Shown one piece after another: positions 19,763 through 41,345 of a stretch of 64,000 nucleotides of DNA. How positions within the stretch are numbered: position 1 is the first letter of the stretch; each line of letters starts with the position of its first letter. The stretch comes from a virus. The translations under genes and the position numbers were made by a program. The notes below the pieces were generated by a model. That model was given only the letters and a program-made list of their open reading frames with translations, searched no databases and was not told where the DNA came from. Location of the stretch: positions 1 to 64,000 of the IMG/VR virus record IMGVR_UViG_3300029827_000121. The stretch is one strand, 5' to 3'.

Positions 19763-19790
19763 GATGCTCCTTTTTTATCTATTTAATAAA

Positions 19791-25062: not shown

Positions 25063-25136
25063 TACTCTATGAAGGAAAGCAAACGCCAAAATATTTTTTT
25101 AACTCAAAAACAATAGAAAGGATGGAAAAATATATT

Positions 25137-26322
25137 GCCATGGCGTAGTTGGGCCTTGTTACGCATTGCAAAGCAAAGGTAATGCCAAGTATAGCAATGT
25201 ATTGTGTTGTAAAGGTATAGTGTAGCTGGGCCATGTTGCGCTGTGCAAAGGCAAAGCGTAGTTAGGCAATGTAGTGTATGGCAAAGGTAATGCGAAGTTG
25301 GGCCATGTAGCGTAATGCAAAGGCATAGCTCTGCGTGGTATAGTTAAGCCATGCAAAGGCATTGCATAGTTGTGTGAGGTAATGCAAAGGCATGCCTTGA
25401 GCAAAGTAAATTTTCCCTGTCCCGATTCACTGCCTTCATTGTATCAGGCGGATGAAGGTAAGGAAAAAGGCAGGGAAAATTTATAATTATTTTCGCTAAT
25501 GCAAAGTAATGCAGCGCTTGTCACCGCAAAGGCACGGTTTAGTTTGGCCCCGTGTTTCTAAGCGAAGCAAAGGCGAAGCATTGTGAAGATAGGTGATGAT
25601 AAGCAAAAGATAAGTAATGTTTTGTAAAGTTTAGTAATGCACAGGCATAGTTCTGTATTGTATCGTATAGCACAGCAAAGGCATGGTGATGTACAGTGAA
25701 GTTCAGCAATGTACAGTAAAGACTAAGTCAGGTGTAGTACAGCAAAGCAATTGTAACGCACAGCAAAGGCATAGTTCAGTATAGTAAAGTTAAGCGAACC
25801 ATCGGCAAAGTATAGCGGAGTATAGCTTGGCAAAGACTATGTTTGGTGCAGAGGGGTGCAGCTAAGTACAGCAATGGCGATGCATAGAAAGGTGGTGGGA
25901 AACACTGCACAGGCTAGGCAAAGTGGAGCATAGCTTGGCAAAAGCAAAGCGGGGCGTCGTTTTGTGTTGTATGGCAAAGCAAAAGCAATGTGAAGCAGGG
26001 TCTTGTTTAGCACAGGTAATGCAGTGTATAGTATTGTGTGGCAATAGCACAGCGGAGCTGTGTTACGCACCGTTTGGCATAGGCATAGTTTAGTGAAGTA
26101 ATGCATAGCATAGGCAGAGTCTGGAACAGTACCGTTTGGCACAGGCATAGTTAAGCCCCGTCATATACAGTTGCGCATTGTAAAGGCTGGGCGTAGTGAT
26201 GCATAGTGAAGCACAGGCAAAGCTTGGCAATGTAATGTATAGCTCAGGCAAGGCGTGGCAAAGCATAGTACAGTCGCGCACAGGCAATGCGAGGCGCAGT
26301 ATGGTGTTGTATTGAAAAGCAA
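25137..26322 (+). repeat. Pentamer-periodic array 1 (NGY-NN units; candidate guide ncRNA array)
   Basis: e.g. ggtaa tgcca agtat agcaa tgtat tgtgt tgtaa a | ggtat agtgt agctg ggcca tgttg cgctg tgcaa a; interrupted by a hairpin at 25407-25483. Confidence 0.9.
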
Positions 26323-26354
26323 AAAGGTTTCGTCTCGTTTTTTGAGGCGAAACC
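26321..26354. terminator. Hairpin closing array 1
   Basis: GGTTTCGTCTC/GAGGCGAAACC stem preceded by an A-tract. Confidence 0.55.
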
Positions 26355-26386
26355 ACTACTTTAACTTTAACAAAAGGAGTCCCATC

Positions 26387-27189: not shown

Positions 27190-27208
27190 TTCTATTTAAT
27201 CTTCCATT

Positions 27209-27233
27209 AAAGCCCGTTTATACGGGCTTTTTT
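27209..27233 (+). terminator. Rho-independent terminator
   Basis: AAAGCCCGT-TTAT-ACGGGCTTTTTT. Confidence 0.8.
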
Positions 27234-27334
27234 ATTGGTTTTATAATAAGACAATTGTTATACATAATAAATATATTGCAATCGTATAATTTATTAGATA
27301 TATTTATGGAAACAATTAATTGATCGGAGATATT

Positions 27335-28225
27335 ATGAAAAAAACAATGGTTACGCCTTGGAACAAAATCGGCATCTCAATAAGAGGTGTTTCGTCATGG
27401 TCGGCTGCGGTAAAAAGAACAAATTTGATGTGGAGCGTATCCAAGCGTCAGCTTTGTTCATTTCAAAATAATAAAAAAGTTCCTACTACGGCTTGGGGAG
27501 TCTTCCGGGATGATACAGATGATTTTCTTGAAACCGTGGAAGCGAAAACCGACATATTACAAAATTCATCGGCATTTAATTTCGTTGATGAGTTTTTAAA
27601 AAAGATCCCCGGTGCCGAATATGATACCGCCGGATCACTCTTCGAAGGTAAATGTATTTTCGTTATTCTCAAGCTTCCCTATACCATTAAACTGGCTCCC
27701 CCTCCCCATGAATTGTTACATTGTTACCTCATGTTCCAAACGACGCATGACGGTTCAATGAGGCATATGCGGCATCTGAAAAACAGTGCGAAACTGATGC
27801 TGGTATCTCTCTCAGGTGCCATATTACCACTTACCATTTCCATTAACGGTACTGGTATATCAGTTATTAAACAAATAGAATCGATACACCGCAAACTCAA
27901 TGCTTTGTTTCAAAAAAGCATCGATGATGAAATGTTTGATATCATAATGAAAAAAATTTTTGGAAAAAACTGTTATGATTCTTCCAAAAAGAAAAATCAG
28001 ATCGAATTAATAAAAAAATGGTTCGATGAAAGCAGTGAGAAAAATGCTTATACCTTGTTGGTGACCTATCTCATTTGGATAGATCAGTACCGGACCACCC
28101 GAAAAACAAAACGGATGGCCAATTTAAACGATCACCAAATACAAATACAATCCTCCATCTTTTATGATGGTGCGGTAAAAAAGGAAAAAGCGTTTTTTAA
28201 ATTAATAAAATTATTGAACAATTAA
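27335..28225 (+). CDS. DUF932/DUF945-like protein (divergent)
   Basis: TPW..IG, FRDDT, ILQN..AF.F, TAGSL..GK, YL..TTHDGS. Confidence 0.7.
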   Translation: MKKTMVTPWNKIGISIRGVSSWSAAVKRTNLMWSVSKRQLCSFQNNKKVPTTAWGVFRDDTDDFLETVEAKTDILQNSSAFNFVDEFLKKIPGAEYDTAGSLFEGKCIFVILKLPYTIKLAPPPHELLHCYLMFQTTHDGSMRHMRHLKNSAKLMLVSLSGAILPLTISINGTGISVIKQIESIHRKLNALFQKSIDDEMFDIIMKKIFGKNCYDSSKKKNQIELIKKWFDESSEKNAYTLLVTYLIWIDQYRTTRKTKRMANLNDHQIQIQSSIFYDGAVKKEKAFFKLIKLLNN

Positions 28226-28287
28226 TCTTGAAAATATTCAATAATAATTATATATTTTTAAAAAGCAACGATTAAACGAGGTTTATT

Positions 28288-28488
28288 ATGAATAAAAACC
28301 GTCCCGGACGGGGACGTATCATTCCCCCTGAACAAAGGGGATGTAAACCGACCGTGAGTGGTGATCCGAATGATCCCACTGTCAGCTATACTATAAGAAT
28401 TCCATTATCCCTTAAAAACTTCTTGTTAAAGATCGGTCCAGAAAACTTAAGAAAGATGCTGAAACGGGAAAAACTGCGATATGGTTAA
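28288..28488 (+). CDS. Small DNA-binding (ribbon-helix-helix-like) protein
   Basis: RPGRGR...TVSYTIRIPLSLKNFL. Confidence 0.5.
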   Translation: MNKNRPGRGRIIPPEQRGCKPTVSGDPNDPTVSYTIRIPLSLKNFLLKIGPENLRKMLKREKLRYG

Positions 28489-28705
28489 ATTCATCTTTCA
28501 AGGAAAAAATGGTCCTGTTTTGGGATTAGGACTAAGTGAAGAAAATATCCGTCGATTAAAAGACGGTCAACCGATCCTTGTCGAAGGTGGATCGCTAAAT
28601 TTAAATCATGATATTTTTATCATGTACGGCAAAACGGAACAATCAATTGCCATGATTCTTTCACCCTATATAGATCCCGATACCGTAATTCATAAGGAAA
28701 TGTAA
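28481..28705 (+). CDS. Hypothetical phage protein
   Basis: LGLSEENIRRLKDGQPI; paralog at 29231. Confidence 0.6.
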   Translation: MVKFIFQGKNGPVLGLGLSEENIRRLKDGQPILVEGGSLNLNHDIFIMYGKTEQSIAMILSPYIDPDTVIHKEM

Positions 28706-28710
28706 AAAAA

Positions 28711-29103
28711 ATGAAACGATTTATTTTTTTTATAATTTTTATTATTTCTTGTACTGAAAATGTACAAGTGCAAACCAATGTACAAGTGCAAACTAAAGTA
28801 TCTATATTAATTGATTATAGTAATATTAATTTCCTTTTTGTAATGGGTAAAATTTATAGTGATCTGAAAATTTATGATGGAAAAATATTACATACTCATC
28901 TTATATGTTCAATTCCTCCGACTCATTCAGGAATTATTAAAGTAGATTCTATGACAATGCTAATATCCGAATTTACTTGTTCTTATACTTTTGAAGAACA
29001 AGGATATATTGATGTTAATGATACGGATATTATTATAAGAGATACACTTATAGCATCAGAAGATTATGATTGGATATTTGAACCTTATAAACCAAATTTT
29101 TAA
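28711..29103 (+). CDS. Putative lipoprotein
   Basis: MKRFIFFIIFIISC signal; tandem NVQVQT duplication. Confidence 0.6.
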   Translation: MKRFIFFIIFIISCTENVQVQTNVQVQTKVSILIDYSNINFLFVMGKIYSDLKIYDGKILHTHLICSIPPTHSGIIKVDSMTMLISEFTCSYTFEEQGYIDVNDTDIIIRDTLIASEDYDWIFEPYKPNF

Positions 29104-29230
29104 AAACCAACAAATGAAATGCCAGGGTCCGCATTGATACATGTTAGCAATGAGAAGGTCCCCCTACGTCGGCAATTCCTTCCGATGTGTATCATCACCG
29201 GCTTGGCATTTCATTTATTACAAAACCATT

Positions 29231-29443
29231 ATGCCTGAAGAAAAACATCCCCTTTTATATATTGGATTGAGTGAAGAAAATTTTAATCAATTAAGAAATG
29301 GCGAAACGATTCTTATTGCCGCCGATGAATTGAAATTGAATCGCGATCTGAAAATTTATTACATTAAAACAAAAACAGAGCGTGCCAAAAAACTCACCCC
29401 GATTGTAATTCTCTCCAATACTGTAATGACGGATAATACATGA
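29231..29443 (+). CDS. Paralog of 28481-28705
   Basis: IGLSEENFNQLRNGETILI. Confidence 0.5.
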   Translation: MPEEKHPLLYIGLSEENFNQLRNGETILIAADELKLNRDLKIYYIKTKTERAKKLTPIVILSNTVMTDNT

Positions 29444-29808
29444 TTTCCGATTGGAGATCACCCGATAAAATCTCCATTCTTCCTTCCACTTATGAAGATT
29501 GGGGAATACAGAATAGATTACAGAGAGTTTATCGCCGCCGTCGTGATGGTATGTCCGTTATCGTTACGGAAGAAAACCATGATGGAAAATGGTGGCAGCA
29601 TGTATCGTGTGCATTCAATAAAAAAGGTAAACTTCCTTCATGGAATGATCTAAAAGAGGTAAAAAATATTTTTATCGGGAGATTCAAAAAGGCGATACAG
29701 ATTTTACCCAATGAAAAAAATTATGTAAATATTCATCCTCAATGTTTGCATTTATTTCATTGTCCCGATGATGGACTGCCCGATTTTACTCATGAGGGTA
29801 TGTTGTGA
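29440..29808 (+). CDS. Conserved phage hypothetical protein
   Basis: WQHVS...LPSWNDLKEVKNIFIG...YVNIHPQCLHL. Confidence 0.7.
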   Translation: MISDWRSPDKISILPSTYEDWGIQNRLQRVYRRRRDGMSVIVTEENHDGKWWQHVSCAFNKKGKLPSWNDLKEVKNIFIGRFKKAIQILPNEKNYVNIHPQCLHLFHCPDDGLPDFTHEGML

Positions 29809-29939
29809 ATAGTTAATAGCAATTTAATTGATAATACAACAAAGGAATTTTATTAAGGGCGATAGATTTTTCACGACGGTGAAAAATTGACAAACAGCAG
29901 TTCCTTTCCGCTTGCTGCTTCGCCCCCTTTTTTGCAGAA

Positions 29940-30584
29940 ATGAACATTATGATAATTCTCCCTCCTAAAGACATTTCATACCTAGATGATATTTTATTGG
30001 AGAACAATTTATTAAAGATTCTTCCGGCGCATATTTACGCGGCATTGCCGCCGGAAGATTTAATGCTGTACGGACATTTTAACGGCATTTACTGTTTCCC
30101 GACCATTGAACTGGCGGAATGGTTATCGGAGAGAATAAATATCGCTTCCACTATTGAAATCGGGGCGGGACATGGAGCGCTGGCGCGTTATCTGAAAATT
30201 CCCGCGACGGATTCAAAATGTCAGGAACGTCCCGATGTCAAGGCATATTATATTAGTACCGGTCAACCCCTAACCAAATATCCTGAGGACATTATTGCTC
30301 TTGATGCGGTTGATGCGATAAAAAAATACCAACCCGAAACGGTAATTGGTTGCTGGGTCACTCACAAGTACAAAAAGACTGAACATGATCGCGGCGGCAA
30401 TATATATGGTATCGATGAAGAATTTATATTAAAAAACGTCAAACAATATATAGTTGTCGGGAATGAAAACGTTCATGGAAATAAGAAAATCTTGAAAATT
30501 AAACATAAAGAATATCAATTTTCTTGGCTATACAGTCGTGCGACGAATCCCCGGAAAAATATCATTTATGTCTGGAATTTATAG
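29940..30584 (+). CDS. Methyltransferase-fold protein
   Basis: TIEIGAGHGALA motif I. Confidence 0.5.
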   Translation: MNIMIILPPKDISYLDDILLENNLLKILPAHIYAALPPEDLMLYGHFNGIYCFPTIELAEWLSERINIASTIEIGAGHGALARYLKIPATDSKCQERPDVKAYYISTGQPLTKYPEDIIALDAVDAIKKYQPETVIGCWVTHKYKKTEHDRGGNIYGIDEEFILKNVKQYIVVGNENVHGNKKILKIKHKEYQFSWLYSRATNPRKNIIYVWNL

Positions 30585-30763
30585 ATCGGTTTTTTAATAT
30601 CCGTTATCATTCTGAATTCCCATTTTTTACGTTGACAATATTCATAGACTTGTTTATACGGCCATCCTTTCATATACTGAATAATCGGTGCGCTATCAAT
30701 AACATGATCATCTATTATTTCACCGCCAGCGCAAAAATAAGAAGCTTTAATTTGAAAAAGCAC
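30566..30763 (-). CDS. Small phage protein
   Basis: YFCAG...APIIQYMKGW. Confidence 0.5.
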   Translation of the reverse strand: MLFQIKASYFCAGGEIIDDHVIDSAPIIQYMKGWPYKQVYEYCQRKKWEFRMITDIKKPIYKFQT

Positions 30764-30782
30764 TATGGCGTTGCTTTTCTGT

Positions 30783-31223
30783 TTACGTTAATAGTTTTTG
30801 TGAAATATCCGATAGCAACTGGTATTGTTTCGATCCATATAAATTAACCGATATTGGCGAGACCAACAACTTCAAATTCCGCTGATCTTCCACCGTTCTC
30901 CATCTCTTGACAATATCCTTTTCCGCTGCTTTATAAGCCATATAATCGGATACATGGTGTCCGTAACACATTCGGAGAAAGTGTACATCGTCTTTTTGTT
31001 TCGCATGAGAAGACAGAATATATCCTCCGTATACCGACATTACACCGATGCCATTATATCGCATTAATTTAATAAGGCGTCTGATACGGGAAGGCTTGCA
31101 GTGCATTTTGTTCGCCAAAACTATTGCCGATCGATAAATGGTCGGATCGGCTTGTAAAATTTTTAATAATCTTTCCATGCCTTCTTCCGTTGCCTTTCGA
31201 ACTGCCATTCGAACTTGATTCAT
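30783..31223 (-). CDS. Winged-HTH protein
   Basis: SAIVLANKM..SRIRRLIKLMR..GIGV...GGYIL. Confidence 0.6.
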   Translation of the reverse strand: MNQVRMAVRKATEEGMERLLKILQADPTIYRSAIVLANKMHCKPSRIRRLIKLMRYNGIGVMSVYGGYILSSHAKQKDDVHFLRMCYGHHVSDYMAYKAAEKDIVKRWRTVEDQRNLKLLVSPISVNLYGSKQYQLLSDISQKLLT

Positions 31224-31254
31224 TAGTGCTCCTTAATGAGAAGTGAATTGAATA

Positions 31255-31995
31255 TTATAAAAACAGAGTTGAATTCAGGGCGCTTGCTTCTTTGGAAGCG
31301 GTAATGAGCGCGGCGGCGCACTCTTTGTAGAATTTCGCTTTCTTTAATAAATCAATCACCTCTTTGGCATCCTGAGGCGAAAGAGATTTCAGTTGTTCAA
31401 CTAACTTTTGTGGTAAAATAATATCACTATCACTATCGGTAGCAGGATCGGAAGGGATATCAGTTATATTAGGCGATTGAAAAGTTCCGGCTGACCTTCT
31501 TTTTTTAGAAACACATTTATATATATCATCTAATAAAATAATTTCATACTGATCTTTCAATTTCTGTCGAACCGCATATATTAAAGTATAAAGCATAGAA
31601 TTGTTTTTTAATTTTAAAGCTGACATAAGAATATTTTTATTTATTCCTTCATTCGACTCCAATAAAAGATCTTTTAATATGTTTGATTTATTTATTCCGT
31701 CTTTCAGGGATCGGGCGACTCTTCTTGTCAAGTCACCATTATTTTCCTTATTGCTTGTGAATAACTCCGGTTCCGGAGAAGAATCGGTATTGTTCCGTTG
31801 CATTATATATCTTCCGTTTTTATCGGCAATGAAATCAAATTGCGGAAATTTTACCCGTGCGCGTTTAATCGTTGAATACGTACTCTGTGTACTGCTATGG
31901 CCAAAACGCGTTTTTAACTCTTCAATAGAAAATCCCGCAGGATTTTCTTTTAACAATTCAAACAGTCTATCGGTACTGCTGACTAATTCCGCCAT
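31255..31995 (-). CDS. Tandem winged-HTH protein (candidate regulator)
   Basis: Two similar wHTH-like segments; divergent from the replication operon; RBS AGGAGG. Confidence 0.55.
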   Translation of the reverse strand: MAELVSSTDRLFELLKENPAGFSIEELKTRFGHSSTQSTYSTIKRARVKFPQFDFIADKNGRYIMQRNNTDSSPEPELFTSNKENNGDLTRRVARSLKDGINKSNILKDLLLESNEGINKNILMSALKLKNNSMLYTLIYAVRQKLKDQYEIILLDDIYKCVSKKRRSAGTFQSPNITDIPSDPATDSDSDIILPQKLVEQLKSLSPQDAKEVIDLLKKAKFYKECAAALITASKEASALNSTLFL

Positions 31996-32309
31996 AAACC
32001 CTCCTTTATTGATGATGTTTCCGTCCGACGGACAGGGAATAAAACAAGAAATTAAAAATGGATAATTTTTTACTTTTTTTGTTGACTTATTTATTGTTAA
32101 AATAATATAATCTAATTATTTGAGTGACGGTCTGGCAGGACCGTCACCCTTGGAGAAAAAGGGCGGAACCGCGAAATTCCTAATAAGCCATGAGGCTTTT
32201 ATACCCTTTTTGTATCCTAATATATTCTTTAATTGATAGGTCAGTCAACTTTATTTTCAATTTTTTTTTCAACTTTTTTTTCAATAAAAATGGAAAGTCG
32301 GATTTTCGA

Positions 32310-32570
32310 ATGGCGGAGATAAGAACCGGCATCCCGGTACAAATAAAGCGAAAAGGACGCAAGCCCCTGTTTGACGACAAAATTAATTGTGTCGCGGGAT
32401 GTCCGGACAAATATCTCCATGAACGAAAAAAAAGTAAAACGGAAGCCATCAGGCATCGTGCGATCATGCTTGGCTTTTCCGTGCAAACATTCGCCGCGCC
32501 TGAGGGCGGATGGAATATCAGAATTTTGCAAGTCGAAGAGAAAGCAAGCGATGAAAGCAAATCGGAATAA
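32310..32570 (+). CDS. Hypothetical small DNA-binding protein
   Basis: GIPV...KGRKP; first gene of the rightward operon. Confidence 0.45.
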   Translation: MAEIRTGIPVQIKRKGRKPLFDDKINCVAGCPDKYLHERKKSKTEAIRHRAIMLGFSVQTFAAPEGGWNIRILQVEEKASDESKSE

Positions 32571-33018
32571 ACTGGTTCGCGCATATAATCAACCGCCTCT
32601 CAGTGAGAAGACAAGTGCTTTCCGTCTTCGTGCTGATGCGCTTAACTGTTCAGGAAAACTCACCCTCATGAAACTCTTTCTTATGATTGTTCTTTGTTCA
32701 ATTGTTTATATAATAATCCTTTTTTTAATTCTATCATTATTCAACTTAAATATCAATAAAAATGTGAACCAAGAAAGGCGGCAGCGCGTGGAAGAGAAAG
32801 ACATTCTTAATCAGACTTGCAAACCGTGTGCTTATCTGCACAATGAAGGTCCGTTACCACTTTGTTTGTCTCTTGAGAGAAGTTACTATCATGCCTCAGG
32901 CCAAAGTCTCTTCCCGGAAGCGCATGAATGCGGTAAAGGCAGATGCATTCATTATAAAGAAAGTCAGCTATTATTGAGACATAACGGAAAAAGATATATG
33001 GAAAGTCTGATTGGATAA
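32551..33018 (+). CDS. Hypothetical protein with TM segment and Cys cluster
   Basis: ORF track; start uncertain. Confidence 0.35.
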   Translation: MKANRNKLVRAYNQPPLSEKTSAFRLRADALNCSGKLTLMKLFLMIVLCSIVYIIILFLILSLFNLNINKNVNQERRQRVEEKDILNQTCKPCAYLHNEGPLPLCLSLERSYYHASGQSLFPEAHECGKGRCIHYKESQLLLRHNGKRYMESLIG

Positions 33019-33030
33019 ACTGCATAGTGT

Positions 33031-33795
33031 ATGGCGCGTCCGAAAAAGGAAGGACTTGACGTTTTTCCGCTTGAAGTGACATTCAATGATACGGTTGAAT
33101 CAATGATTGCAATGCATAAAAATGGATTGACATGGTTAATACGATTCTGGCAAAGCGCGTATAAAACAATGACGGGAACGGTTGATCTGCGGGGACCATT
33201 TACCGAACTGTTCCGGAAAAAATGCAGTGTAACACCTGAGGAACACGAGGCGATTCTCGCGGATGCGATAAAAAACGGAATTTGTCGTGAAACGGAAAAA
33301 GGGGTATATATCTCCCCGAAGGCACAGGCAACGCTTGCCGACAAAGCGAAAAGACGTGCCGCCGCGACCAAACGGTTGAAAAAACCGACGAAACCGCTGG
33401 TCCCTATAAAGGAAAAAGAGGAAGAGAAACAGAAACCCGTACCGCGAAAAAAAAGAAAGGCCCGGATTACCGTTCAATATCTCGATACCGTCTATCTGAC
33501 CGATGAAGAGTATGAGCGATTAAAGAAAGAACTTGGCGAACGATTTCTTAAAGCATGCATAAAATATCTCGATGAATACTTGACCAATAACCCGAAGAAA
33601 CGCAAACAGTATCAGGATCACAACAAGGTTATCCGCAATTGGGTGATCGACAAAATACGGGAAAGAATGCAACCGGCACCGGAAAAGGAACCGGAGAAAC
33701 AAGTGAGCATGACCGATGATGAGAAACGAGAACAAATTGCCGCAACGGAAGACGTCGTTGCCGGAGTCCTCAGAAAAATCGGAAGAACCGTTTGA
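33031..33795 (+). CDS. Phage replication initiator (Lin1244/DUF4373-like)
   Basis: MARPKKEGLDVFPL N-terminus; C-terminal VYLTDEEYERL...YQDHNKVIRNW. Confidence 0.75.
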   Translation: MARPKKEGLDVFPLEVTFNDTVESMIAMHKNGLTWLIRFWQSAYKTMTGTVDLRGPFTELFRKKCSVTPEEHEAILADAIKNGICRETEKGVYISPKAQATLADKAKRRAAATKRLKKPTKPLVPIKEKEEEKQKPVPRKKRKARITVQYLDTVYLTDEEYERLKKELGERFLKACIKYLDEYLTNNPKKRKQYQDHNKVIRNWVIDKIRERMQPAPEKEPEKQVSMTDDEKREQIAATEDVVAGVLRKIGRTV

Positions 33796-34018
33796 TTATG
33801 ACGCGGCGATCGCACGGATAATGGAGCAATGGGGCGAACACCGCAGAAAACCGGTGGAAGAGCATTGGGCCAGTAGGATATGACGCCCGTTCCGTCGCGC
33901 GACCGCCGCCGACGCAACGGCAATGACATCGTGAAAGAAACATGTCCCGAATGCGGTGCGCCGTGGGACCGGGAGCACAACCGATGTACCGCTAATTGTC
34001 AATCAATGGAGGTTTTTG

Positions 34019-34918
34019 ATGAGCAAATTGAAAGCGAAAGATCCTGAAGAAGTCAAACAGGGTAAGGCGAAAGGACTTCTTTTCGGAGCGAGTGGAGTGG
34101 GAAAAACATGGTTTTCCCTCACATTCCCAAGGCCGTATTATATCGATACCGAAGGGGGAGCGGACGGAGTGGAATACCAGAAACGTCTCAAAGCGGCGGG
34201 AGGCGCGTACATGGGACCGGAGGAAGGAGCGCTTGACCTTTCGGCAATCGTTACCGAAATGCAATCGCTTGCCACCGAAAAACATAATTACGGTACGCTG
34301 GTGATCGATTCGATCACGAAAGTTTATCAGACTTGCATCGCCAACGAGGCGGAGCGTCTCGCCGAACGTGATGTCTTTGGCGCGTCGAAAAAACCGGCGA
34401 TCGCGCAGATGCGCCGACTTGTCAATTGGTGTATGAAACTTGACATGAACATCTGGTTCATCGCGCATGAGACGTCGGAATGGGGTACCAATCCCCGAAC
34501 CGGACAACGGGAAGAGACGGGAAAGTGTCCCGACGTATGGGAAAAACTCGTTTATGAGCTTGATCTGGGATTGCGGGTGATCAAACGCGGCACCGTCTAT
34601 CCGCCAACGGCGATCGTTTATAAAACGCGCCTCGCGGGTTTTCCCGATCAGGAAACCTTTTCCCTCGATTACGAGGAGTTTTCGAAACGGTACGGCAGGG
34701 AGAGTATTGAATCGAATGTAAATCCTATCACGATCGCGTCGGATGAGGATGTCGAGGAAATCGAACGGATGGTGGCGCTCCTTAAAATCACCCCTGAGGA
34801 AACGACGAAAGTATTGACCAAGGCGGGAGCGGACAATTGGAACGAACTTACCGCCGATCAGGCGGCGAAAACAATAGAATGGTTAAACGGCAAATTGAAA
34901 GGCGGAAAAAAGAAATGA
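34019..34918 (+). CDS. Sak4-like AAA_24 ATPase/recombinase
   Basis: GASGVGKT, IDTEGG, VIDSIT, FIAH; RBS GGAGG. Confidence 0.85.
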   Translation: MSKLKAKDPEEVKQGKAKGLLFGASGVGKTWFSLTFPRPYYIDTEGGADGVEYQKRLKAAGGAYMGPEEGALDLSAIVTEMQSLATEKHNYGTLVIDSITKVYQTCIANEAERLAERDVFGASKKPAIAQMRRLVNWCMKLDMNIWFIAHETSEWGTNPRTGQREETGKCPDVWEKLVYELDLGLRVIKRGTVYPPTAIVYKTRLAGFPDQETFSLDYEEFSKRYGRESIESNVNPITIASDEDVEEIERMVALLKITPEETTKVLTKAGADNWNELTADQAAKTIEWLNGKLKGGKKK

Positions 34919-35343
34919 GGTTCAAAACCTATTCGGAAAAAGATCTACCGAGAAAAATCATCGATAAAGGCGTTTACGACGTCGAAGTGATCGAAGCGAT
35001 CGATCAGGTAAGTAAAAACGACAAGGAGATGATCCGGCTTACTATTGCCGTCTGGTCGGGGGATCGCGTCGTCAACAGAATCTATGACTATCTGCTTGAT
35101 GAAATGCCCGCTAAACTCCGCCATGCGTGCGATGCTTTCGGGCTGCTGGCGAAATACGAGACGGGAAGCCTCAGAGCCTTCGATTTCGAAGGTCGTGTCG
35201 GTAAAGCGAAAATCGGCATCGAAGTGGATAAAAACGGCGTCTATCCCGACAAGAACAAGATCGATGATTACGTGTGCCGTGAAGCGAAACATCTGGCGGA
35301 CCAGAACAACGCTCCTCCAGCGGATTCCGATCTGCCATTTTAA
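34915..35343 (+). CDS. DUF669-type single-stranded DNA-binding protein
   Basis: GVYDVEV...SKNDKEMI...; acidic C-terminus DSDLPF; follows the Sak4-like gene. Confidence 0.8.
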   Translation: MRFKTYSEKDLPRKIIDKGVYDVEVIEAIDQVSKNDKEMIRLTIAVWSGDRVVNRIYDYLLDEMPAKLRHACDAFGLLAKYETGSLRAFDFEGRVGKAKIGIEVDKNGVYPDKNKIDDYVCREAKHLADQNNAPPADSDLPF

Positions 35344-35344
35344 C

Positions 35345-35790
35345 GGTGTTTGGTAAGGTAATGCAAAGGCACCGTGGGGTGATGTATTGTCAAGCACAGG
35401 TACAGCACGGTTTTGTTTAGCATAGGCAACGCATTGTTATGACATGTTTTGTTAAGCACAGGCATAGTGAAGCAATGTAAAGTTTTGCACAGGCATGGTG
35501 ATGTAAGGTTTGGTAAGGTGATGCACAGGCAATGCGCGGTGGAGTTTCGTTATGCACAGGCACGGTTTGGCAAAGCACGGCTTCGTTTTGCATAGGCGGT
35601 GTGGCGTTTAGTAAGGTGAAGCTTGGTCATGCACAGGCAGTGCGCGGTGAAGTTTCGTTATGCACAGGCAAGGCAGGGTAATGTTTGGCCCAGCACAGGC
35701 TAAGCTTGGTGTTGTTTGGTAAGGCACAGGAAGAGCAAAGTGAGGTTTAGTATAGCACAGGCGAAGTAAAGCATAGTCAAGCAAAGGCAA
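35345..35790 (+). repeat. Pentamer-periodic array 2 (13 complete units, 35368-35785)
   Basis: Unit lengths 31,26,36,31,36,31,36,41,31,31,31,31,26 (all 5n+1); boundary GCA(C/T/A)A|GG. Confidence 0.95.
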
Positions 35791-35799
35791 GGAGCGCGT

Positions 35800-36003
35800 A
35801 TGACGAAAGATTCGCTGATGACTCCCGATGAATTGAGTGAGCGATTAAACGTCAGTAAGAAGTTCATCGAAAAATACATGGCGTTACGGCGTCTGCCCGG
35901 TATGGTAAAAATCGGGGGAATTTATCGGTTCAGGCGTGCCGATATTGAAAAACGACTGACCGGCGGAGAGTTTTTATTGCCGGAGAGAGGAAGAAAAAAA
36001 TGA
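35800..36003 (+). CDS. xis: Excisionase (HTH_17/MerR-like)
   Basis: LMTPDELSERLNVS...LPGMVKIGGIYRFRRADIE. Confidence 0.8.
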   Translation: MTKDSLMTPDELSERLNVSKKFIEKYMALRRLPGMVKIGGIYRFRRADIEKRLTGGEFLLPERGRKK

Positions 36004-36275
36004 GCTTCTACATTTGCGGCAAAGCCGTAAAAGAGTGTGAAGGGTGTCCCTCCGCCGTCCCGCACAAATGGAGTCCTCGATGTATGCTCGGCGGCTGCCG
36101 GGAATACGCCGACCGGTGGAAAAAAGACATTCCGACCTGTGAAGAGTGTCCTTTCAAAAACACCTGCGTGAAATACGAACAGGGCAATCGATACGATATG
36201 TCGAAAACGCCTGAATTCTGTCCGATATACGCCAGCAAAATCATCTATAATGCGGTATGCGTAAAAACATTATAG
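36000..36275 (+). CDS. Cys-rich hypothetical protein
   Basis: Multiple CxxC motifs. Confidence 0.55.
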   Translation: MSFYICGKAVKECEGCPSAVPHKWSPRCMLGGCREYADRWKKDIPTCEECPFKNTCVKYEQGNRYDMSKTPEFCPIYASKIIYNAVCVKTL

Positions 36276-36366
36276 CAGTATGCGTAAAAGCGTAGAAAAT
36301 ATACCCTCTCCTCCCCTACCTGATACTATATTATACTCAGATACCCTCCCTGAAAAGGGAGGAGAT

Positions 36367-37419
36367 ATGCGAGTCTGGTATAAGGATGATGCAAACGGGG
36401 TCCGGTGGTATTACGTTGACCGGGCATACCGAAACGGCGCGGGAAAGGCGCGTCACTTCCGCCGCAAGACGGATAATTTCGATCAGCATTTAAAAAATCA
36501 GATCGAAGCCCGTTCATTGACGGGAGATTGTTCTTTGACATCGTTGCGATTTTCCAAATGCGTGGAACTTTATTTGAACGAGCGCGGACGCGGGGGATTT
36601 AATCAGGCGTGTTACGACCGGTCGATTAAGGAGCTGGGTCGCCTGTTTCCCGACAAACAGATTTTCGCCGCCGGTTACAGCCGGTATGTCGGGAATCTTG
36701 AAGGGAGCGACCTTGCGGTCAATACGGTCAATAATTATAAAATTATTGTCCGGTCGATCTGCAATTTCGCTTATGAGACCGGTCGGTGCGGTCGGGCCAC
36801 GGTCAGAGATTGGAGGATCAGGAAAGGCAACGAGCGCAATCGGATTCTCTCCGACGGCGAAAAAAACGCCCTGATCAATTATTTGACCTTACATAAATCC
36901 CATATACTCGAAGCGGTAAAATTCTCCCTTATTAATCCCATCCGCAAGGGGGATCTTTTCAGTTTGCAACGAAAAGATCTTCAGATGGATGTCTCGCGAT
37001 GGGTCGTTCGTTTTCAGGCGAAGAAAACGAGAAATAAAATTCGGGTGACGATCCTGCCGAATATCGACATGGATTTTGTCCGGTACGCCCATTCGTTGCC
37101 GGGGGATTGTCCGTGGCTTTTTCCCATGTTGGAACGGAAAAACGGAAAGGTTGTCTGGAAAAAAATCAGCGATCCCCGATGGCATTTCGATACGGTTTTA
37201 AAACAGGTGGGGATTTATGATTTCAACTGGCACGATTTGAAGCATTGCGCGGAGACGTATTTATTGCGGCAGGGATTCACCTATGAGATGTTGCAGAAAA
37301 TGGGTATTCAAACGAGTCCGAAGACGCAGCATATTTACGATAACCGTCGTCAGATTGATATCATAAATGACGTATTATGTAGCCCTCAGGTAGCCTTTCC
37401 GGTACGGAAGACGGCATAG
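36367..37419 (+). CDS. int: Tyrosine recombinase/integrase
   Basis: TVNNY, RNRILS, PIRKGDL, KKT, WHDLKH, terminal IYD; RBS GGAGG; adjacent attP. Confidence 0.88.
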   Translation: MRVWYKDDANGVRWYYVDRAYRNGAGKARHFRRKTDNFDQHLKNQIEARSLTGDCSLTSLRFSKCVELYLNERGRGGFNQACYDRSIKELGRLFPDKQIFAAGYSRYVGNLEGSDLAVNTVNNYKIIVRSICNFAYETGRCGRATVRDWRIRKGNERNRILSDGEKNALINYLTLHKSHILEAVKFSLINPIRKGDLFSLQRKDLQMDVSRWVVRFQAKKTRNKIRVTILPNIDMDFVRYAHSLPGDCPWLFPMLERKNGKVVWKKISDPRWHFDTVLKQVGIYDFNWHDLKHCAETYLLRQGFTYEMLQKMGIQTSPKTQHIYDNRRQIDIINDVLCSPQVAFPVRKTA

Positions 37420-37460
37420 AACCATTGGTTTTATTGGGTGAAACCTACTCCGTCGTAGAG

Positions 37461-37515
37461 TTGCTAAACCTGCGTAGGGGCAACTCTACCGGAGGTTCAA
37501 ATCCTCTCCCCTCCG
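37461..37515 (+). other. attP core: 3' half of tRNA-Ser(GCT)
   Basis: Anticodon loop TTGCTAA, long variable arm GTAGGG-GCAA-CTCTAC, T arm GGAGG-TTCAAAT-CCTCT, acceptor strand CCCCTCC plus discriminator G; no 5' half. Paired TGTAGYC-like arm-type repeats at 37378-37396 and 37605-37623. Confidence 0.88.
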
Positions 37516-37678
37516 TTTTTTTAACGAATTTGGGCACTTTTTTTAAAAACCTGCTTTCCATCATGAGTATTTTTATCCTCAAATATACTATCATCAGGGC
37601 CAATTGTAGTCTTTTTGTAGCCTCTGAGAACCAAAAAATTAATTCGGGAGGGTATCAAAAATAGAGAATCGATACAGA

Positions 37679-39222
37679 GGCGATGCATGGTATGGTTCAG
37701 TATTGTTATGCACAGGCAGAGCATGGTTAAGCCAAGCACAGGCAAAGCGAGGTAGAGCGAAGTCAGGTGATGCACAGGCACAGCAGAGTAAAGTTAGGTC
37801 ATGCACAGGCAGAGTGATGTCTAGTAAAGCATAGGCGTAGCGATGTGCTGTTATGTACAGGCACAACAGAGTAGAGTTTGGTATTGTTTAGCACAGGCAT
37901 GGTCTAGTTTTGTTTGGCACGGTAAAGCAAAGGCAAAGTGCTGTAAGGTGAAGCACAGGCATGGTCTGGTTTAGCTTGATATTGCGCGGCACAGGCAATG
38001 TAAAGTGAAGTAAGGTGATGCACAGGCGATGCATGGTATAGCAATGTATGGCACCGGCATGGTGCAGTGATGTTCAGTAAAGCATGGGCACGGTGCTGTG
38101 AAGTGTTGTATAGCAATGGCAAGGTGAAGTAGTGCATTGTGTGGCAAAGCCATTGCTTGGTGAAGTGCTGTAATGTCGAGCATAGGCAATGCATAGTGAA
38201 GCATTGCTCTGCAAAGGCAAAGCGTGGTTTAGTGATGCAAAGGCATAGTTTTGTGACGTGCTGTTTCGTAAAGCATAGACTATGCGTTGTGACGCTGTGT
38301 ATTGCAAATGAAAGGCGAAGTGGTGCATGTCGCTGTATGGCAAAGGCGAAGTAAGGTGAAGCACTGTGATGCATTGTGGAGCACAGGCATAGTGAAGCAT
38401 TGTGCAGCATAGGTAAGGCAAAGCGGTGTGTTGTTTCGTCATGCACAGGCATGGTATCGCGGCGTTTAGTGCGGCAAAGGAACGGCAAAGCTTGGCATGG
38501 CGATGGTAAAGCGTTGAGTAGTTTGGCACAGCACCGGCAAAGTAAGGCGAAGTAGTGTTTAGCATAGCATAGGCAAAGCATAGTGAAGATAAGGAACGCG
38601 TCGTGAAGTCAAGCACCGGCAATACATGGTAAAGCACCGTTTGGCCTTGTTAAGGCGAAGTATTGTGTGGTATGGTGTTGTGGAGCATTGCACAGGTATA
38701 GCATGGTGCTGTTATACTTTGTGTAGCGCGGGAAAGGCATGGTAAAGTAAGGTTGTGCCTCGTGTACCACAGGAATGGCAAAGTGAAGTTATGTAATGTG
38801 GGACAAAGGCTGAGTAACGTTAAGTAAAGTGATGCATAGGCATGGCAACTCGCGGTAACGTATTGCCCGACGAAGCAAAGGTAAAGCATAGCAATGTGAC
38901 GCGCAGCGGGGCGAGGGTAATGCATAGTAATGTAATGTGCAGCGGGGCAGGGGTAATGTGAAGTATAGTTTAGTCGCGCAAAAGCTTTGTATGGATTTGC
39001 GTAGTTAAGTGTTGCAAAAGCAGGTCGATGTAACGTATCGTATGGAACAGCACTGTTTTTTTTAACCATTTTGGAAAAAACCAATTGGATCAAATAGAAA
39101 GGAGATGTTCGCGATTGTAAAGTGCTGTATTGCAATGTGGGGTTTTGCAACGGCTGAGTTGAGCAAGGAATAGTTTGGCGATGCAAAGGTATAGTGTAGT
39201 ATTGCTAATCAATGCAAAGGTA
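37679..39222 (+). repeat. Pentamer-periodic array 3 (upstream of the Cas7-like gene)
   Basis: ggcga tgcat ggtat ggttc agtat tgtta tgcac a | ggcag agcat ggtta agcca agcac a | ...; AT-rich interruption at about 39053-39105. Confidence 0.93.
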
Positions 39223-39255
39223 AATCAACATTCAATTTTATCAGAAAGGTTTAGT

Positions 39256-39888
39256 ATGAAGACGCTCAAAGTAAAAATCACTTTCCAAGAAGAAGTGTTG
39301 GGAACAGCAAGTCCGTCAAAAGAAATCCACGCGGAATATATAGCCAGCAAAGCTCCCGACAAACTAACGCGGGAAGAAGAAGTGGAAGCTATCGGGATAG
39401 AAGAAGTCGTTGAAAAAGCAATGACTATCTTCCCACGCGATAAGGATAGTAATCCCATCTTTTGGGATTACCAGTGGAAGGGATTTTTCAAAGATACCTG
39501 CGCCGCTCTCATGCGCTGTGAAGGATTCGAAACGTATAAGGCATCAAAATCCGAATCGGGTAAAGGAAAGAAAGGAGAATTAAGAGCATATAAAAAGGTG
39601 ATCGATGGATGTATTTTCGTTCACCCGAGAATGATTGCCATCAAAGTAAAAGGCAAAATGGGAAACTGTCAACGTCCTCTTCGCGGAAATACCGCGCAGG
39701 GAGAGAGGATTGCTTTGGCGAACAGTGAAACCGTCCCCGCAGGAAGCACCTGCGAATTGGAGATTCAATGTTTGAGTGATTCCCATGAAAAGTTTGTGCG
39801 TGAATGGCTTGATTACGGCCAATTGCGCGGCATCGGACAATGGCGTAACTCCGGCAAAGGCCGCTTTACCGTCAATTACTTGAAATAA
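39256..39888 (+). CDS. Stand-alone Cas7/RAMP-superfamily protein (Vipr-like), 210 aa
   Basis: N-terminal strand LKVKITF..EVLGT, PIFWDYQWKGFFK (equivalent to P.IPGSS.KG..R), ETVPAGST.ELEI, Gly-rich loop GIGQWRNSGKGRF; RBS AGAAAGG. Confidence 0.85.
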   Translation: MKTLKVKITFQEEVLGTASPSKEIHAEYIASKAPDKLTREEEVEAIGIEEVVEKAMTIFPRDKDSNPIFWDYQWKGFFKDTCAALMRCEGFETYKASKSESGKGKKGELRAYKKVIDGCIFVHPRMIAIKVKGKMGNCQRPLRGNTAQGERIALANSETVPAGSTCELEIQCLSDSHEKFVREWLDYGQLRGIGQWRNSGKGRFTVNYLK

Positions 39889-40962
39889 GCCATGCTTTGG
39901 CAATCCAAAGTATAGGAATGCCCGGTGCGGTCAAGCATCGTTAATGCTATGTATTGCAGGGTGGTGTATGGCACAGGCATGGTATCGTTAGGCATAGTAA
40001 AGTTAAGCATAGGCAAGGTAAAGCTATGCATTGCCTAGTAATGGTTTGGTAAAGCAGGGCCGGATACGGTGGAGCAAAGCACAGGCTTGGCGAGGCGTTG
40101 TATCGTGTGGCACAGGCATAGAATAGTTAGGAGTGGCCGAGCAAAAGCCAAGTGATGTATTGTCCGGCAAAGGTAAAGCATAGTGCTATTTCGTTGCGTA
40201 GAGCAGAAGCGAGGCGAAGTATAGTAATTCGTAGTATAGCAAAGGAAGTGTACCGTTAAGTTGCGCGAAGCAAAGGCTGAGTGAAGCGTAGTTTTGCGCC
40301 GCAAAGGCAAAGCGAAGTTCCGTTCAGTACGGCAAAGGCATGGTTATGTTACATACTGTGAAGCCCTGCAAAGGCATAGTTTTGCGTGGTTTAGCGACGC
40401 AAAAGAAGTGTGAAGCCTTGTTTCGTATCGCCATGCGAAGGTATTGTACTGCGCAGTGCAGTCATGTATTGCAATGGTTGGGCGAAGCCCTGTCCAGTAT
40501 GGCAAAGCAAAAGCAGTGTATGGTGAAGCTGAGCTAGCAAAGGATCAGCATAGTTAAGTATCGCGATGCATTGAAAAGGCTATTCAATGTATAGTGTTGC
40601 AAAGGTAACGTGGAGTCAGGTGTTGTTTCGCGATGCAAAGGAAGAGCATAGTTGTGTTCCGTTCTGCAAAGGCAAAGCGAAGCGAAGTAGCGGCGTGTGA
40701 AGCATAGGCGAAACATGGTGGTGTTGAGTATAGTAATGCAAAGGCAAAGCGAAGCAAAGTAAGGTGTTGTGAAGCATAGGCAGGACATAGTGTGGTGCAG
40801 CATGGTAATGCAAAGGCGGAGTGAAGTAATGTAACGTACAGTTTCGCAGAGGCGTAGTAAAGTACCGTTGTGTTTGACAAAGCAAAGGTTCAGCAAAGCG
40901 TAGTATTTTATTGTTCAGCAAAAGCAAAGCTAAGTATCGTTCGGTCGTGCGAAGCAAAGGCG
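39889..40962 (+). repeat. Pentamer-periodic array 4 (downstream of the Cas7-like gene)
   Basis: Same NGY-NN grammar, mostly GCAAAGG boundaries; starts immediately after the stop codon. Confidence 0.9.
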
Positions 40963-40964
40963 CA

Positions 40965-41345
40965 TTATACCTCTTCAATCACTATCACCGTCTGTTCTAC
41001 CGGCGATATTTCCGGTTTGTGGACCTGATAGCTTTCGATCTGGTCGGGCGAATCAGTTTCAAGTATTCCGCAATTAACGATTCCGTCGAGTGCAGCTTTT
41101 CCCGATATGTTATCAATGTCGGTCTTTTGCTTTCGGGTAGAATAAATATCGATATGAACAGGTGAATCAAATGTCTCACCCGAATACGCTGAAACGGGTT
41201 CATTTCGAGAAGCCGGTTCCATGTTGGTAACGGAATGGGGAGTATTATCTCCATTCTTTTTTTTTCGGTATGCATCAACGATCTGTTGCTTTATATGTTC
41301 CGGAATAGGATATTTATTCAATTCCGAGAGATTTCGAATTTTCAT
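40965..41345 (-). CDS. RusA-like Holliday junction resolvase
   Basis: DIDNISGKAALDGIV..GILETDS. Confidence 0.7.
   Translation of the reverse strand: MKIRNLSELNKYPIPEHIKQQIVDAYRKKKNGDNTPHSVTNMEPASRNEPVSAYSGETFDSPVHIDIYSTRKQKTDIDNISGKAALDGIVNCGILETDSPDQIESYQVHKPEISPVEQTVIVIEEV

What the first reader, a model, noticed from the sequence alone, without database searches (positions are those of the whole stretch)
35345..35790. Exact grammar of array 2: every unit is 5n+1 nt
A hand parse from 35368 to 35785 gives 13 units of 31,26,36,31,36,31,36,41,31,31,31,31,26 nt, summing to 418 and matching the coordinates. Example: ggcat ggtga tgtaa ggttt ggtaa ggtga tgcac a. Position 2 is G in every pentamer and position 3 is almost always C/T, while positions 1, 4 and 5 vary. 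Length changes only in whole pentamers. A decaying satellite would not be expected to keep two positions fixed while randomising the others, so this implies selection on a code. The array fills the whole ssb-xis intergenic gap and is probably co-transcribed with replication genes.
Basis: seen in the sequence. Interest (0 to 1): 0.8.

Follow-up and report, generated by a model that had tools for sequence, protein, structure and literature searches.

The report
Phage VIPR guide-RNA array, staggered type
The 5n+1 pentamer array is real and is one of four guide-RNA arrays of a VIPR system (a CRISPR-like phage system first described in 2026 preprints), so it is a clear new example of a known kind, not a new kind.

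Summary
Window 35368-35785 parses into 13 units of 31,26,36,31,36,31,36,41,31,31,31,31,26 nt. All 81 pentamers have G at position 2 and 79 have C/T at position 3. The parse score is 100, against -118 +/- 12 for shuffles.

The same grammar fills four same-strand arrays of about 4 kb and 116 units, in a 73.7-kb rumen-type phage genome. Two of them flank a 210-aa gene at 39256-39888. That gene is a small RAMP by profile, by fold (Csm3 and type VII Cas7) and by hhalign to the experimentally studied Vipr of phage SUSP1. In all 16 independent related loci, a G-every-5-nt array follows the gene on the same strand. The phase slips by +1 in 289 of 344 shifts.

This matches VIPR (bioRxiv 10.64898/2026.04.26.720920 and .720927): one Vipr protomer per pentamer, fixed G(G)Y bases sequestered, variable NN bases pairing with DNA while skipping one target base. 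The preprint names YNNNG repeats and "staggered" arrays with 1-nt overlapping guides, which fits 5n+1, but did not confirm that architecture by RNA sequencing.

Not shown here: transcription, processing sites and targets. Target searches were inconclusive.

This scan already holds VIPR notes from at least 393 other genomes.

The parts
35347..35790 (+). Array 2, the finding: 14 staggered units of n x [N-G-Y-N-N] + 1 nt, filling the gap between the SSB-like gene and xis. Read as candidate vrRNA genes lying about 3.5 kb upstream of vipr.
   Evidence: 81/81 G2 and 79/81 Y3; parse score 100 against -118 +/- 12 in shuffles. No excess RNA folding (z +0.40).
25142..26325 (+). Array 1: about 33 units of the same grammar, interrupted at about 25399-25499, in the early region about 13 kb from vipr.
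   Evidence: 31 of 33 shifts are +1.
37680..39059 (+). Array 3: about 41 units, directly upstream of vipr and just after the attP-like tRNA fragment.
   Evidence: 41 of 41 shifts are +1.
39113..39215 (+). Three or four further pentamer units between array 3 and the vipr start.
   Evidence: Read from the sequence and the parse.
39256..39888 (+). vipr candidate: 210-aa single-RRM RAMP with a beta-hairpin thumb (about residues 136-160) and a C-terminal glycine-rich loop of form GxGxxxxxGxG (residues 192-202).
   Evidence: The profile of 72 homologues hits type VII Cas7 (E 2.5e-6) and Csm4. AF2 model: pLDDT 88, pTM 0.84. Foldseek top hits are Csm3 and type VII Cas7, E 5e-7, probability 1.0. hhalign to SUSP1 Vipr: probability 79%, E 1.5e-5, full length. 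The family has 1649 clusters at 50% identity.
39899..40958 (+). Array 4: about 30 units starting 11 nt after the vipr stop codon. This is the position conserved in all relatives.
   Evidence: 30 of 30 shifts are +1.
34915..35343 (+). Context gene upstream of array 2: 142-aa OB-fold SSB-like protein with an acidic C-terminal tip ending in LPF.
   Evidence: AF2 model pLDDT 76. Foldseek: PrgE of pCF10 at E 1.8e-4, followed by many bacterial SSBs. No Pfam or PHROG hit.
35800..37419 (+). Context genes downstream of array 2: HTH_17 excisionase-like gene (35800-36003), a 91-aa ORF, and a tyrosine integrase (36280-37419).
   Evidence: Pfam HTH_17 at 5.7e-10 and Phage_integrase at 1.4e-6; PHROG integrase at 4.4e-27.

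Best explanation
Array 2 is a block of guide-RNA genes (vrRNAs) of a VIPR system carried by a temperate phage of about 74 kb. Together with arrays 1, 3 and 4 it would be transcribed from the + strand. Each pentamer N-G-Y-N-N would be bound by one copy of the 210-aa Vipr protein encoded at 39256-39888. The protein holds the fixed G and pyrimidine, and presents the variable bases (positions 4-5, possibly also 1) to pair with double-stranded DNA of a rival element, skipping one target base per repeat, so that the bound gene is silenced. The 5n+1 rule is the 'staggered' array form. Each guide starts at a GG and ends on the first G of the next guide's GG, so neighbouring guides share one base and successive guides sit one base out of phase. 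Shown here: the grammar, its strand bias, the RAMP fold, homology to an experimentally studied Vipr, and the conserved gene-array pairing. Inferred from the published homologue: RNA binding at one protomer per pentamer, DNA targeting, and silencing. Not shown for this phage: transcription, cleavage at GCA(C/A)A|GG, the pairing rule, and the targets.
For: The grammar is exact and far beyond chance. All four arrays lie on the strand of vipr and its flanking genes. The 210-aa protein is a RAMP by profile (type VII Cas7 E 2.5e-6, Csm4 6e-4) and by fold (pLDDT 88; Csm3 and type VII Cas7 E about 5e-7). It aligns over its full length with SUSP1 Vipr (hhalign probability 79%, E 1.5e-5). Nine of the ten residue numbers named in the structure preprint match that SUSP1 ORF. 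The SUSP1 intergenic tracts show the same N-G-Y-N-N pentamers. The G-loop Trp and Arg that hold G2 and Y3 in SUSP1 (W178, R179) are kept as W196 and R197 in 71 and 70 of 72 family members. The two G1-binding residues are replaced (D177 to Q195 in 69 of 72; H17 to T17), which matches the loss of a fixed G at position 1 in these arrays. In 17 of 17 loci (16 independent, 43-66% G+C) a G-period-5 array starts right after the gene on the same strand. The phase shift is +1 in 289 of 344 cases there and in 116 of 118 here. Every boundary reads ..GCaA|x|GG... The preprint lists YNNNG repeats and staggered arrays with 1-nt overlapping vrRNAs. No cas genes, CRISPR-type repeats, ribozymes or Rfam families were found. 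The array RNA has no excess structure.
Against: There is no expression or processing data for this phage, because no RNA run was listed. The staggered architecture was not among those the preprint confirmed by small-RNA sequencing. No natural target was found. Permutation tests on the phage's own genome and on 15 related loci were not significant (z 1.7 or less). Six NNx pattern scans of IMG/VR gave 5-82 hits each, no contig was hit twice, and there was no convergence. Units hold only 5-8 repeats, which gives 10-16 guide bases at most, and their first and last pentamers are semi-conserved. That is much less specificity than the 9-16 repeats of SUSP1. No accessory vap gene is conserved next to vipr. 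The hhalign probability to SUSP1 Vipr is moderate (79%).
Confidence: 0.87

Rival explanations
1. The arrays are not cut into one-unit guides. Each is one long RNA coated by a continuous Vipr filament, and the extra base every 5-8 repeats is a structural hinge at about one filament turn, not a guide boundary.
For: The published filament has six subunits per turn in the binary complex and five in the ternary complex. Units here are mostly 6-7 pentamers, and 5-6 in relatives. One-unit guides carry little specificity. No processing element such as a ribozyme, hairpin or tail is visible.
Against: Unit length varies from 4 to 9 repeats with no fixed period. The conserved boundary word GCA(C/A)A|GGCA looks like a handle or cut site. 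The preprint draws the boundaries as ends of processed vrRNAs.
Confidence: 0.15
2. Arrays 1 and 2, which lie far from vipr, are solo or decoy guides meant to load a rival phage's Vipr and misdirect it, rather than to arm this phage's own Vipr.
For: Solo vrRNAs that redirect or target rival VIPR systems are described for satellites and SUSP1-family phages (abstract). Arrays 1 and 2 sit 3.5-13 kb from vipr.
Against: They use the same pentamer grammar, the same +1 stagger and the same boundary word as arrays 3 and 4, which flank vipr. The simplest reading is therefore one shared protein. No match to the vipr genes of 15 relatives stood out.
Confidence: 0.1
3. The array is a non-functional satellite or slippage product, or a DNA-level element such as iterons, a centromere-like site or curved DNA.
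For: It is a tandem repeat in an intergenic gap next to replication genes. TRF reports only weak 10-nt periodicities there.
Against: G2 is invariant while positions 1, 4 and 5 are near-random. Among the eight closest paralogous unit pairs, position 2 never differs and 7 of 9 changes at position 3 are C/T. Strand asymmetry is extreme, 3170 against 160 nt. The array is coupled to a RAMP gene in 17 of 17 loci across 43-66% G+C. A 5-nt period with a +1 slip fits no DNA helical repeat.
Confidence: 0.02
4. The long open frames on the - strand across the arrays (for example 37904-38581, 225 aa) are real genes, and the periodicity reflects a repetitive protein.
For: Several - strand ORFs of 60-225 aa overlap the arrays.
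Against: A 5-nt period with +1 shifts cannot keep a reading frame. The open frames follow from the lack of T and C on the + strand. None has a Pfam hit even at E 1.
Confidence: 0.01

Closest known systems
VIPR systems (Vipr protein plus vrRNA), with type II of Escherichia phage SUSP1 as the experimental reference (bioRxiv 10.64898/2026.04.26.720920, .720927 and 10.64898/2026.10.15.759431)
   Same: Both are phage-borne. Both have a RAMP of about 20 kDa with a thumb and a G-loop. Both have same-strand intergenic tracts of pentamers with fixed G-Y and variable bases on both sides of the gene. Neither has cas genes or CRISPR repeats. The Trp and Arg of the G-loop are conserved.
   Different: Here the repeat is N-G-Y-N-N, the preprint's 'YNNNG' variant, not G-G-Y-N-N. 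Guides have 5-8 repeats rather than 9-16. There is no conserved 3' tail or pseudoknot. Guides abut with a +1 stagger. No vap gene is found. There are 116 units in four arrays against four vrRNAs in SUSP1. The G1-binding Asp and His are replaced by Gln and Thr.
'Staggered vrRNA arrays' of the VIPR preprint (its fig. S18, read from the legend only)
   Same: The legend says individual vrRNAs derive from positions overlapping by 1 nt, and that the end of one marks the start of the next. A guide of the form GG + n x (YNNNG) sharing its last G with the next guide gives a spacing of exactly 5n+1, as seen here and in 16 related loci.
   Different: The figure itself and the loci behind it could not be read, so identity with this clade is inferred. 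The preprint did not confirm this architecture by small-RNA sequencing.
Class 1 CRISPR backbone proteins: Cas7 of type III (Csm3) and type VII
   Same: These are the best fold and profile matches: RRM core, beta-hairpin thumb and glycine-rich loop. They also form helical filaments along a guide RNA.
   Different: Cas7 binds 6 nt per subunit in a 5+1 pattern and pairs contiguously. Here the period is 5 nt with fixed bases inside every repeat. There is no repeat-spacer array, cas1, cas2, cas5, cas6 or cas10, and only about 11-13% identity.
TIGR-Tas arrays
   Same: Both are tandem guide arrays in phages with short units; the commonest unit here is 36 nt.
   Different: The language-model preprint reports an 18-nt periodicity for TIGR arrays, against 5 nt for VIPR. 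No 18-nt period is seen here. From my own knowledge, not tested here, the TIGR effector has a Nop domain; no Nop domain was found in the 13 frames tested near the arrays, nine neighbouring genes and four array-overlapping frames.

Membership tests
VIPR | A small (about 20 kDa) stand-alone RAMP with an RRM core, thumb and glycine-rich loop | tested here: met
   The protein has 210 aa. AF2 pLDDT is 88. Foldseek finds Csm3 and type VII Cas7 at E about 5e-7. The profile hits type VII Cas7 at E 2.5e-6. There is a beta-hairpin at 136-160 and a GxGxxxxxGxG loop at 192-202.
VIPR | Homology to an experimentally characterised Vipr (SUSP1) | tested here: met
   hhalign of the 72-sequence family profile against the SUSP1 ORF at 28474-29061(-) gives probability 79%, E 1.5e-5 and 175 aligned columns spanning both proteins. 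The G-loops align. This support is moderate, not overwhelming.
VIPR | Tandem pentanucleotide repeats with fixed G(G)Y and variable NN, next to vipr on the same strand | tested here: met
   Over 767 pentamers, G2 is 97% and Y3 is 95%, while positions 1, 4 and 5 carry 0.15-0.32 bits. Arrays flank the gene here and follow it in 17 of 17 loci. The motif is the YNNNG variant named in the preprint's methods.
VIPR | Non-CRISPR context: no cas operon and no repeat-spacer array | tested here: met
   No PADLOC hit for vipr or three neighbouring ORFs. The neighbours are replication, xis and int genes. TRF shows no CRISPR-like repeats. Not every ORF of the window was scanned.
VIPR | An accessory vap gene beside vipr (six vap families across seven types) | tested here: not met
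   No protein other than Vipr is conserved within 5 kb across the 17 loci. The preprint lists six vap families for seven types, so a vap may not be universal, but this is inferred. The VIPR type could not be assigned.
VIPR | Arrays transcribed and processed into vrRNAs that bind Vipr | not testable with these tools
VIPR | Variable NN bases match natural targets under the 1-nt skip rule | tested here: inconclusive
   Permutation tests on the phage's own genome and 15 related loci gave z 0.97 and 1.72 for skip 1, and between -2.1 and 0.9 for the other skips. Six IMG/VR scans gave 5, 11, 41, 19, 82 and 19 hits with no contig hit by two guides. Guides of 10-18 bases are too short for single hits to be significant in a database of this size.
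VIPR type II (SUSP1-like) | 9-16 repeats followed by a conserved structured 3' tail or pseudoknot, plus vap1 | tested here: not met
   Units have 4-9 repeats and abut directly. There is no tail and no excess folding (z +0.40). No vap was found. It is therefore not type II.
VIPR, ribozyme-interspersed arrays | Hammerhead ribozymes between guides | tested here: not met
   No Rfam family was found in 25000-41100 at E 0.1 or less, apart from a tRNA-antisense match at 37445-37515.
CRISPR-Cas class 1 | Repeat-spacer array, 6-nt Cas7 periodicity and a multi-gene cas operon | tested here: not met
   The period is 5 nt, there are no repeats of 23 nt or more with unique spacers, and there are no other cas genes.

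The most novel reading that the evidence does not exclude
This Vipr clade, abundant in rumen and gut phages, may read a somewhat different code from SUSP1. The two G1-binding residues are replaced, pentamer position 1 is as variable as positions 4-5, and guides are only 5-8 repeats long, about one filament turn. The protein may therefore present three variable bases per repeat, or use another skip rule, with very many mini-guides (116 in this phage, about 5.5% of its genome) making up for low specificity per guide. The staggered 5n+1 processing itself has not been confirmed experimentally.
Probability: 0.2. Interest if true: 0.5.

Novelty: new member of a known kind. Interest (0 to 1): 0.3.

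Why it matters
It shows that a pattern picked out by eye from raw sequence is a genuine RNA-guided system, and it places it in VIPR. The locus is also a useful test case. It is a very large, clean example of the staggered, short-guide, YNNNG form, which the VIPR preprint's main text mentions only in passing and did not confirm by small-RNA sequencing. The replacement of the G1-binding residues, matched by loss of the first G in the repeats, links protein and RNA in a way that can be tested. Two points of biology may be worth following. The arrays flank the integration module, so that in the prophage they would lie at opposite ends. And four arrays are spread over early, replication and lysogeny regions. 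It does not open a new category, since the class, its code and its variants were in print by mid-2026.

Tried and rejected
1. Rfam, at gathering score on the whole window and at E 0.1 or less on 25000-41100, found no RNA family in the arrays and no ribozyme.
2. Pfam, PHROGs and PADLOC gave no hit for the 210-aa protein. phmmer against PDB sequences also gave none. Only the family profile and the fold search revealed the RAMP.
3. blastn of 33000-40900 against GenBank phages gave no match. tblastn found four unannotated human-faecal phages and not SUSP1.
5. RNA evidence: no RNA holder was listed for 35000-41000.
6. Target search on local data. Best-hit distributions under nine pairing rules on the phage genome plus related loci did not separate. 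Permutation tests were not significant.
7. Target search on IMG/VR. Six NNx patterns from the longest units gave hit numbers of the order I expected by chance, using my own rough estimate of the collection's size. No contig was shared between guides, and near-matches simply piled up on A+T-rich loci.
8. The 18-base pattern from the unit at 25680 hit five contigs, all in frame. One of the three near-identical hits lay in the C-terminal part of an ORF that I identified as a portal protein. I rejected these as targets. The purine-rich period-3 pattern favours codon frame 1. They amount to about three independent hits, against roughly two expected by my estimate. The contigs have very different G+C content (0.33-0.62).
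9. TRAP-, Hfq- or CsrA-type RNA-binding sites, primase sites, R-loop origins and anti-CRISPR decoy repeats were early ideas. I dropped them once the gene-array link and the VIPR papers were found.
10. No supplementary tables of the VIPR preprint are held, so I could not check the VIPR type or whether this clade is among its 667 systems.

Full report
**Observation.** From 35368 to 35785 there are 13 units of 31,26,36,31,36,31,36,41,31,31,31,31,26 nt.
- Each unit is a run of pentamers N-G-Y-N-N plus one extra A.
- G occupies position 2 in 81 of 81 pentamers and C/T occupies position 3 in 79 of 81.
- A dynamic-programming parse that lets the phase slip by 1-4 nt at equal cost scores 100. In 300 shuffles of the same bases it scores -118 +/- 12.
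- One more 21-nt unit precedes 35368. The array therefore begins 4 nt after the stop codon of the upstream gene and runs to about 10 nt before the xis start codon.

**Extent.** The grammar is not confined to this gap.
- Chains of GY at 5-nt spacing cover 3170 nt on the + strand, 160 nt on the - strand, and 85-240 nt in shuffles. They fall into four arrays: about 25142-26325, 35347-35790, 37680-39059 and 39899-40958.
- Together these give 116 units. Of these, 110 are 26, 31, 36 or 41 nt long, and the extra base is A in 98.
- Information content over 767 phased pentamers is 0.15, 1.74, 0.75, 0.32 and 0.18 bits for positions 1-5. This parse favours NGY by construction, so the shuffle controls carry the significance.
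- Units begin with GGCA and end with GCA(C/A) plus A.
- With all shift sizes treated alike, the phase shift is +1 in 116 of 118 cases.
- Among the eight closest paralogous unit pairs, position 2 never differs and 7 of 9 differences at position 3 are C/T. Positions 1, 4 and 5 differ in 22-33% of cases.
- The window is bases 1-64000 of a 73,743-base virus record rated 96% complete. The last 9.7 kb holds no further array on the + strand and a single four-pentamer chain on the - strand. The arrays are about 5.5% of the genome.

**Context.** The genes around array 2 all lie on the + strand.
- They are a replisome-organizer-like gene, a Sak4-like AAA_24 ATPase, a 142-aa protein, then array 2, then an HTH_17 excisionase-like gene, a 91-aa ORF and a tyrosine integrase.
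- The 142-aa protein has no HMM hit. It folds as an OB-fold most like PrgE of pCF10 (E 1.8e-4) and bacterial SSBs, and it ends in the acidic ...LPF tip typical of SSBs.
- No terminator is predicted between the upstream gene and the array.

**The partner gene.**
- Single-sequence searches were blank.
- The family is very large: 7924 of 8000 scored candidates at E 0.001 or less, and 1649 clusters at 50% identity, mostly from gut and rumen metagenomes on contigs of 50-75 kb.
- A profile of 72 members hits the 200-aa Cas7 of type VII CRISPR (E 2.5e-6) and Csm4.
- The AlphaFold model (pLDDT 88, pTM 0.84) shows an RRM core, a long beta-hairpin and a C-terminal GxGxxxxxGxG loop.
- Foldseek ranks Csm3 and type VII Cas7 first, at E about 5e-7 and probability 1.0. 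The nearest viral model is annotated as a RAMP.

**Gene-array link.** In all 17 loci fetched through this protein, a G-every-5-nt array starts right after the gene on the same strand.
- Sixteen of these loci are independent of the window. They come from rumen, yak, sheep and other metagenomes, span 43-66% G+C, and include contigs binned to Clostridia and Atopobiaceae genomes.
- In the 16 independent loci the phase shift is +1 in 289 of 344 cases, against 25% expected if shift sizes were random. Units hold mostly 5-7 pentamers, and the boundary reads ..GCaA|x|GG...
- Position 3 is C/T in some lineages and A/C in others.
- No other protein is conserved beside the gene.

[quoted passage not shown] It describes VIPR systems.
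- A VIPR system is a phage-borne RAMP of about 20 kDa (Vipr) plus vrRNAs made of YNNGG pentamers. The GGY is fixed, and the NN dinucleotides pair with double-stranded DNA while skipping one target base.
- Its methods list the variant repeats NNNGG, YNNNG and NNNNG. Its text and the legend of fig. S18 describe 'staggered arrays' whose vrRNAs overlap by 1 nt.
- The companion structure preprint (.720927) shows one protomer per repeat in a helical filament. G1 is read by H17 and D177, G2 by R138 and W178, and Y3 sits in a pocket that includes R179.

**Test against the reference system.** I fetched phage SUSP1 (KT454805.2).
- Its 195-aa ORF at 28474-29061(-) carries nine of the ten named residues at the stated numbers. 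It is flanked by GGYNN tracts.
- hhalign of my family profile against it gives probability 79% and E 1.5e-5 over the full length, with the G-loops aligned.
- W178 and R179 correspond to W196 and R197, which are kept in 71 and 70 of 72 family members. D177 corresponds to Q195 (69 of 72) and H17 to T17.
- This fits the arrays here, where G2 and Y3 are fixed but position 1 is A, G or T. That link is my inference from an alignment, not a structural result.

**The 5n+1 rule.** Suppose a guide is GG followed by n repeats of YNNNG, and its last G is also the first G of the next guide's GG. Starts are then spaced 5n+1 apart, and each guide is one base out of phase with the previous one. This is what is seen, and it matches the wording of the fig. 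S18 legend. I could read only the legend. The preprint says that only the ribozyme-interspersed and single-guide architectures were confirmed by small-RNA sequencing. Processing at GCA(C/A)A|GG is therefore still a prediction.

**Other properties of the arrays.** Array 2 RNA has no excess secondary structure (z +0.40). The arrays contain no ribozyme or other Rfam family. They lack the 3' tail of type II vrRNAs. The VIPR type cannot be assigned, because the supplementary tables are not held.

**What could not be shown.**
- I decoded the 114 usable units under several pairing rules and searched the phage genome and the related loci. Nothing separated the 1-nt-skip rule from the controls.
- Six NNx patterns from the longest units were scanned against IMG/VR. 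They gave 5, 11, 41, 19, 82 and 19 hits, with no contig shared and no convergence.
- The five in-frame hits of one 18-base pattern amount to about three independent hits in unrelated environments. I treat them as chance.
- With at most 10-18 guide bases per unit, single hits cannot be significant in so large a collection. Targets remain unknown.

**Verdict.** The element is a VIPR guide array of the staggered YNNNG kind. It belongs to a large clade of rumen and gut phages and is unusually big, with 116 units in four arrays, two of them far from vipr.
- It is a new member of a kind published in 2026. A second preprint recovers VIPR arrays, including non-canonical motifs, from sequence alone.
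- This scan already holds 588 VIPR notes from at least 393 genomes.
- The open points are the processing of staggered arrays, the pairing rule when G1 is not read, and the targets.

Noticed in passing
window 37430-37520 (+): Just after the integrase gene lies a fragment that looks like the 3' part of a tRNA, with a GGTTCAAATCC T-loop followed by a T-run. ARAGORN calls no tRNA. Rfam gives a sub-threshold antisense match to a plastid element, RF04351 (E 1.3e-5). From memory, not checked, that plastid spacer lies opposite trnS. Integration there would put array 2, xis and int at one prophage end, and array 3, vipr and array 4 at the other.
   Followed up: partly
window 34915-35343 (+): This 142-aa protein has no Pfam or PHROG hit and only six homologues in the large protein collection. 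It folds as an OB-fold most like PrgE of plasmid pCF10 and ends in an SSB-type acidic ...LPF tip. It follows a Sak4-like ATPase with an ATGA start/stop overlap.
   Followed up: yes
L002, L010, L013, L015 (arrays downstream of vipr), compared with the window, L009, L014, L016 and L017: Vipr proteins that are 51-65% identical to the window's go with different fixed bases at pentamer position 3: mostly A/C in some loci and C/T in others. This suggests that the pocket for that base co-evolves with the repeat.
   Followed up: no
window 19790-20001: TRF reports two copies of a 104-nt unit. The unit itself contains 30-nt repeats rich in the near-palindromic words ATTAAATTAT and ATAATTTAA. It lies between divergent genes (19154-19762 on -, 20281 onward on +), where the cumulative GC skew turns. 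It may be an operator or origin region.
   Followed up: no
window 26797-27189 (+): A 130-aa ORF just after array 1 has a collagen-like Gly-X-Y stretch and weak matches to tail-fibre PHROGs. The Pfam Collagen match is below the family's threshold.
   Followed up: no
window 39106-39174 (+): A 22-codon ORF with a good AGGAG ribosome-binding site lies between array 3 and vipr, partly over residual pentamer units. It may be chance.
   Followed up: no
L061 (IMGVR_UViG_3300025601_000842), 9.6 kb fetched: Two different guides match this A+T-rich locus exactly under the NNx rule: the unit at 38345 (16 of 16 bases) and the unit at 39976 (14 of 14 bases). About one such coincidence is expected over the 1.56 Mb examined, so I treat it as chance.
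   Followed up: partly
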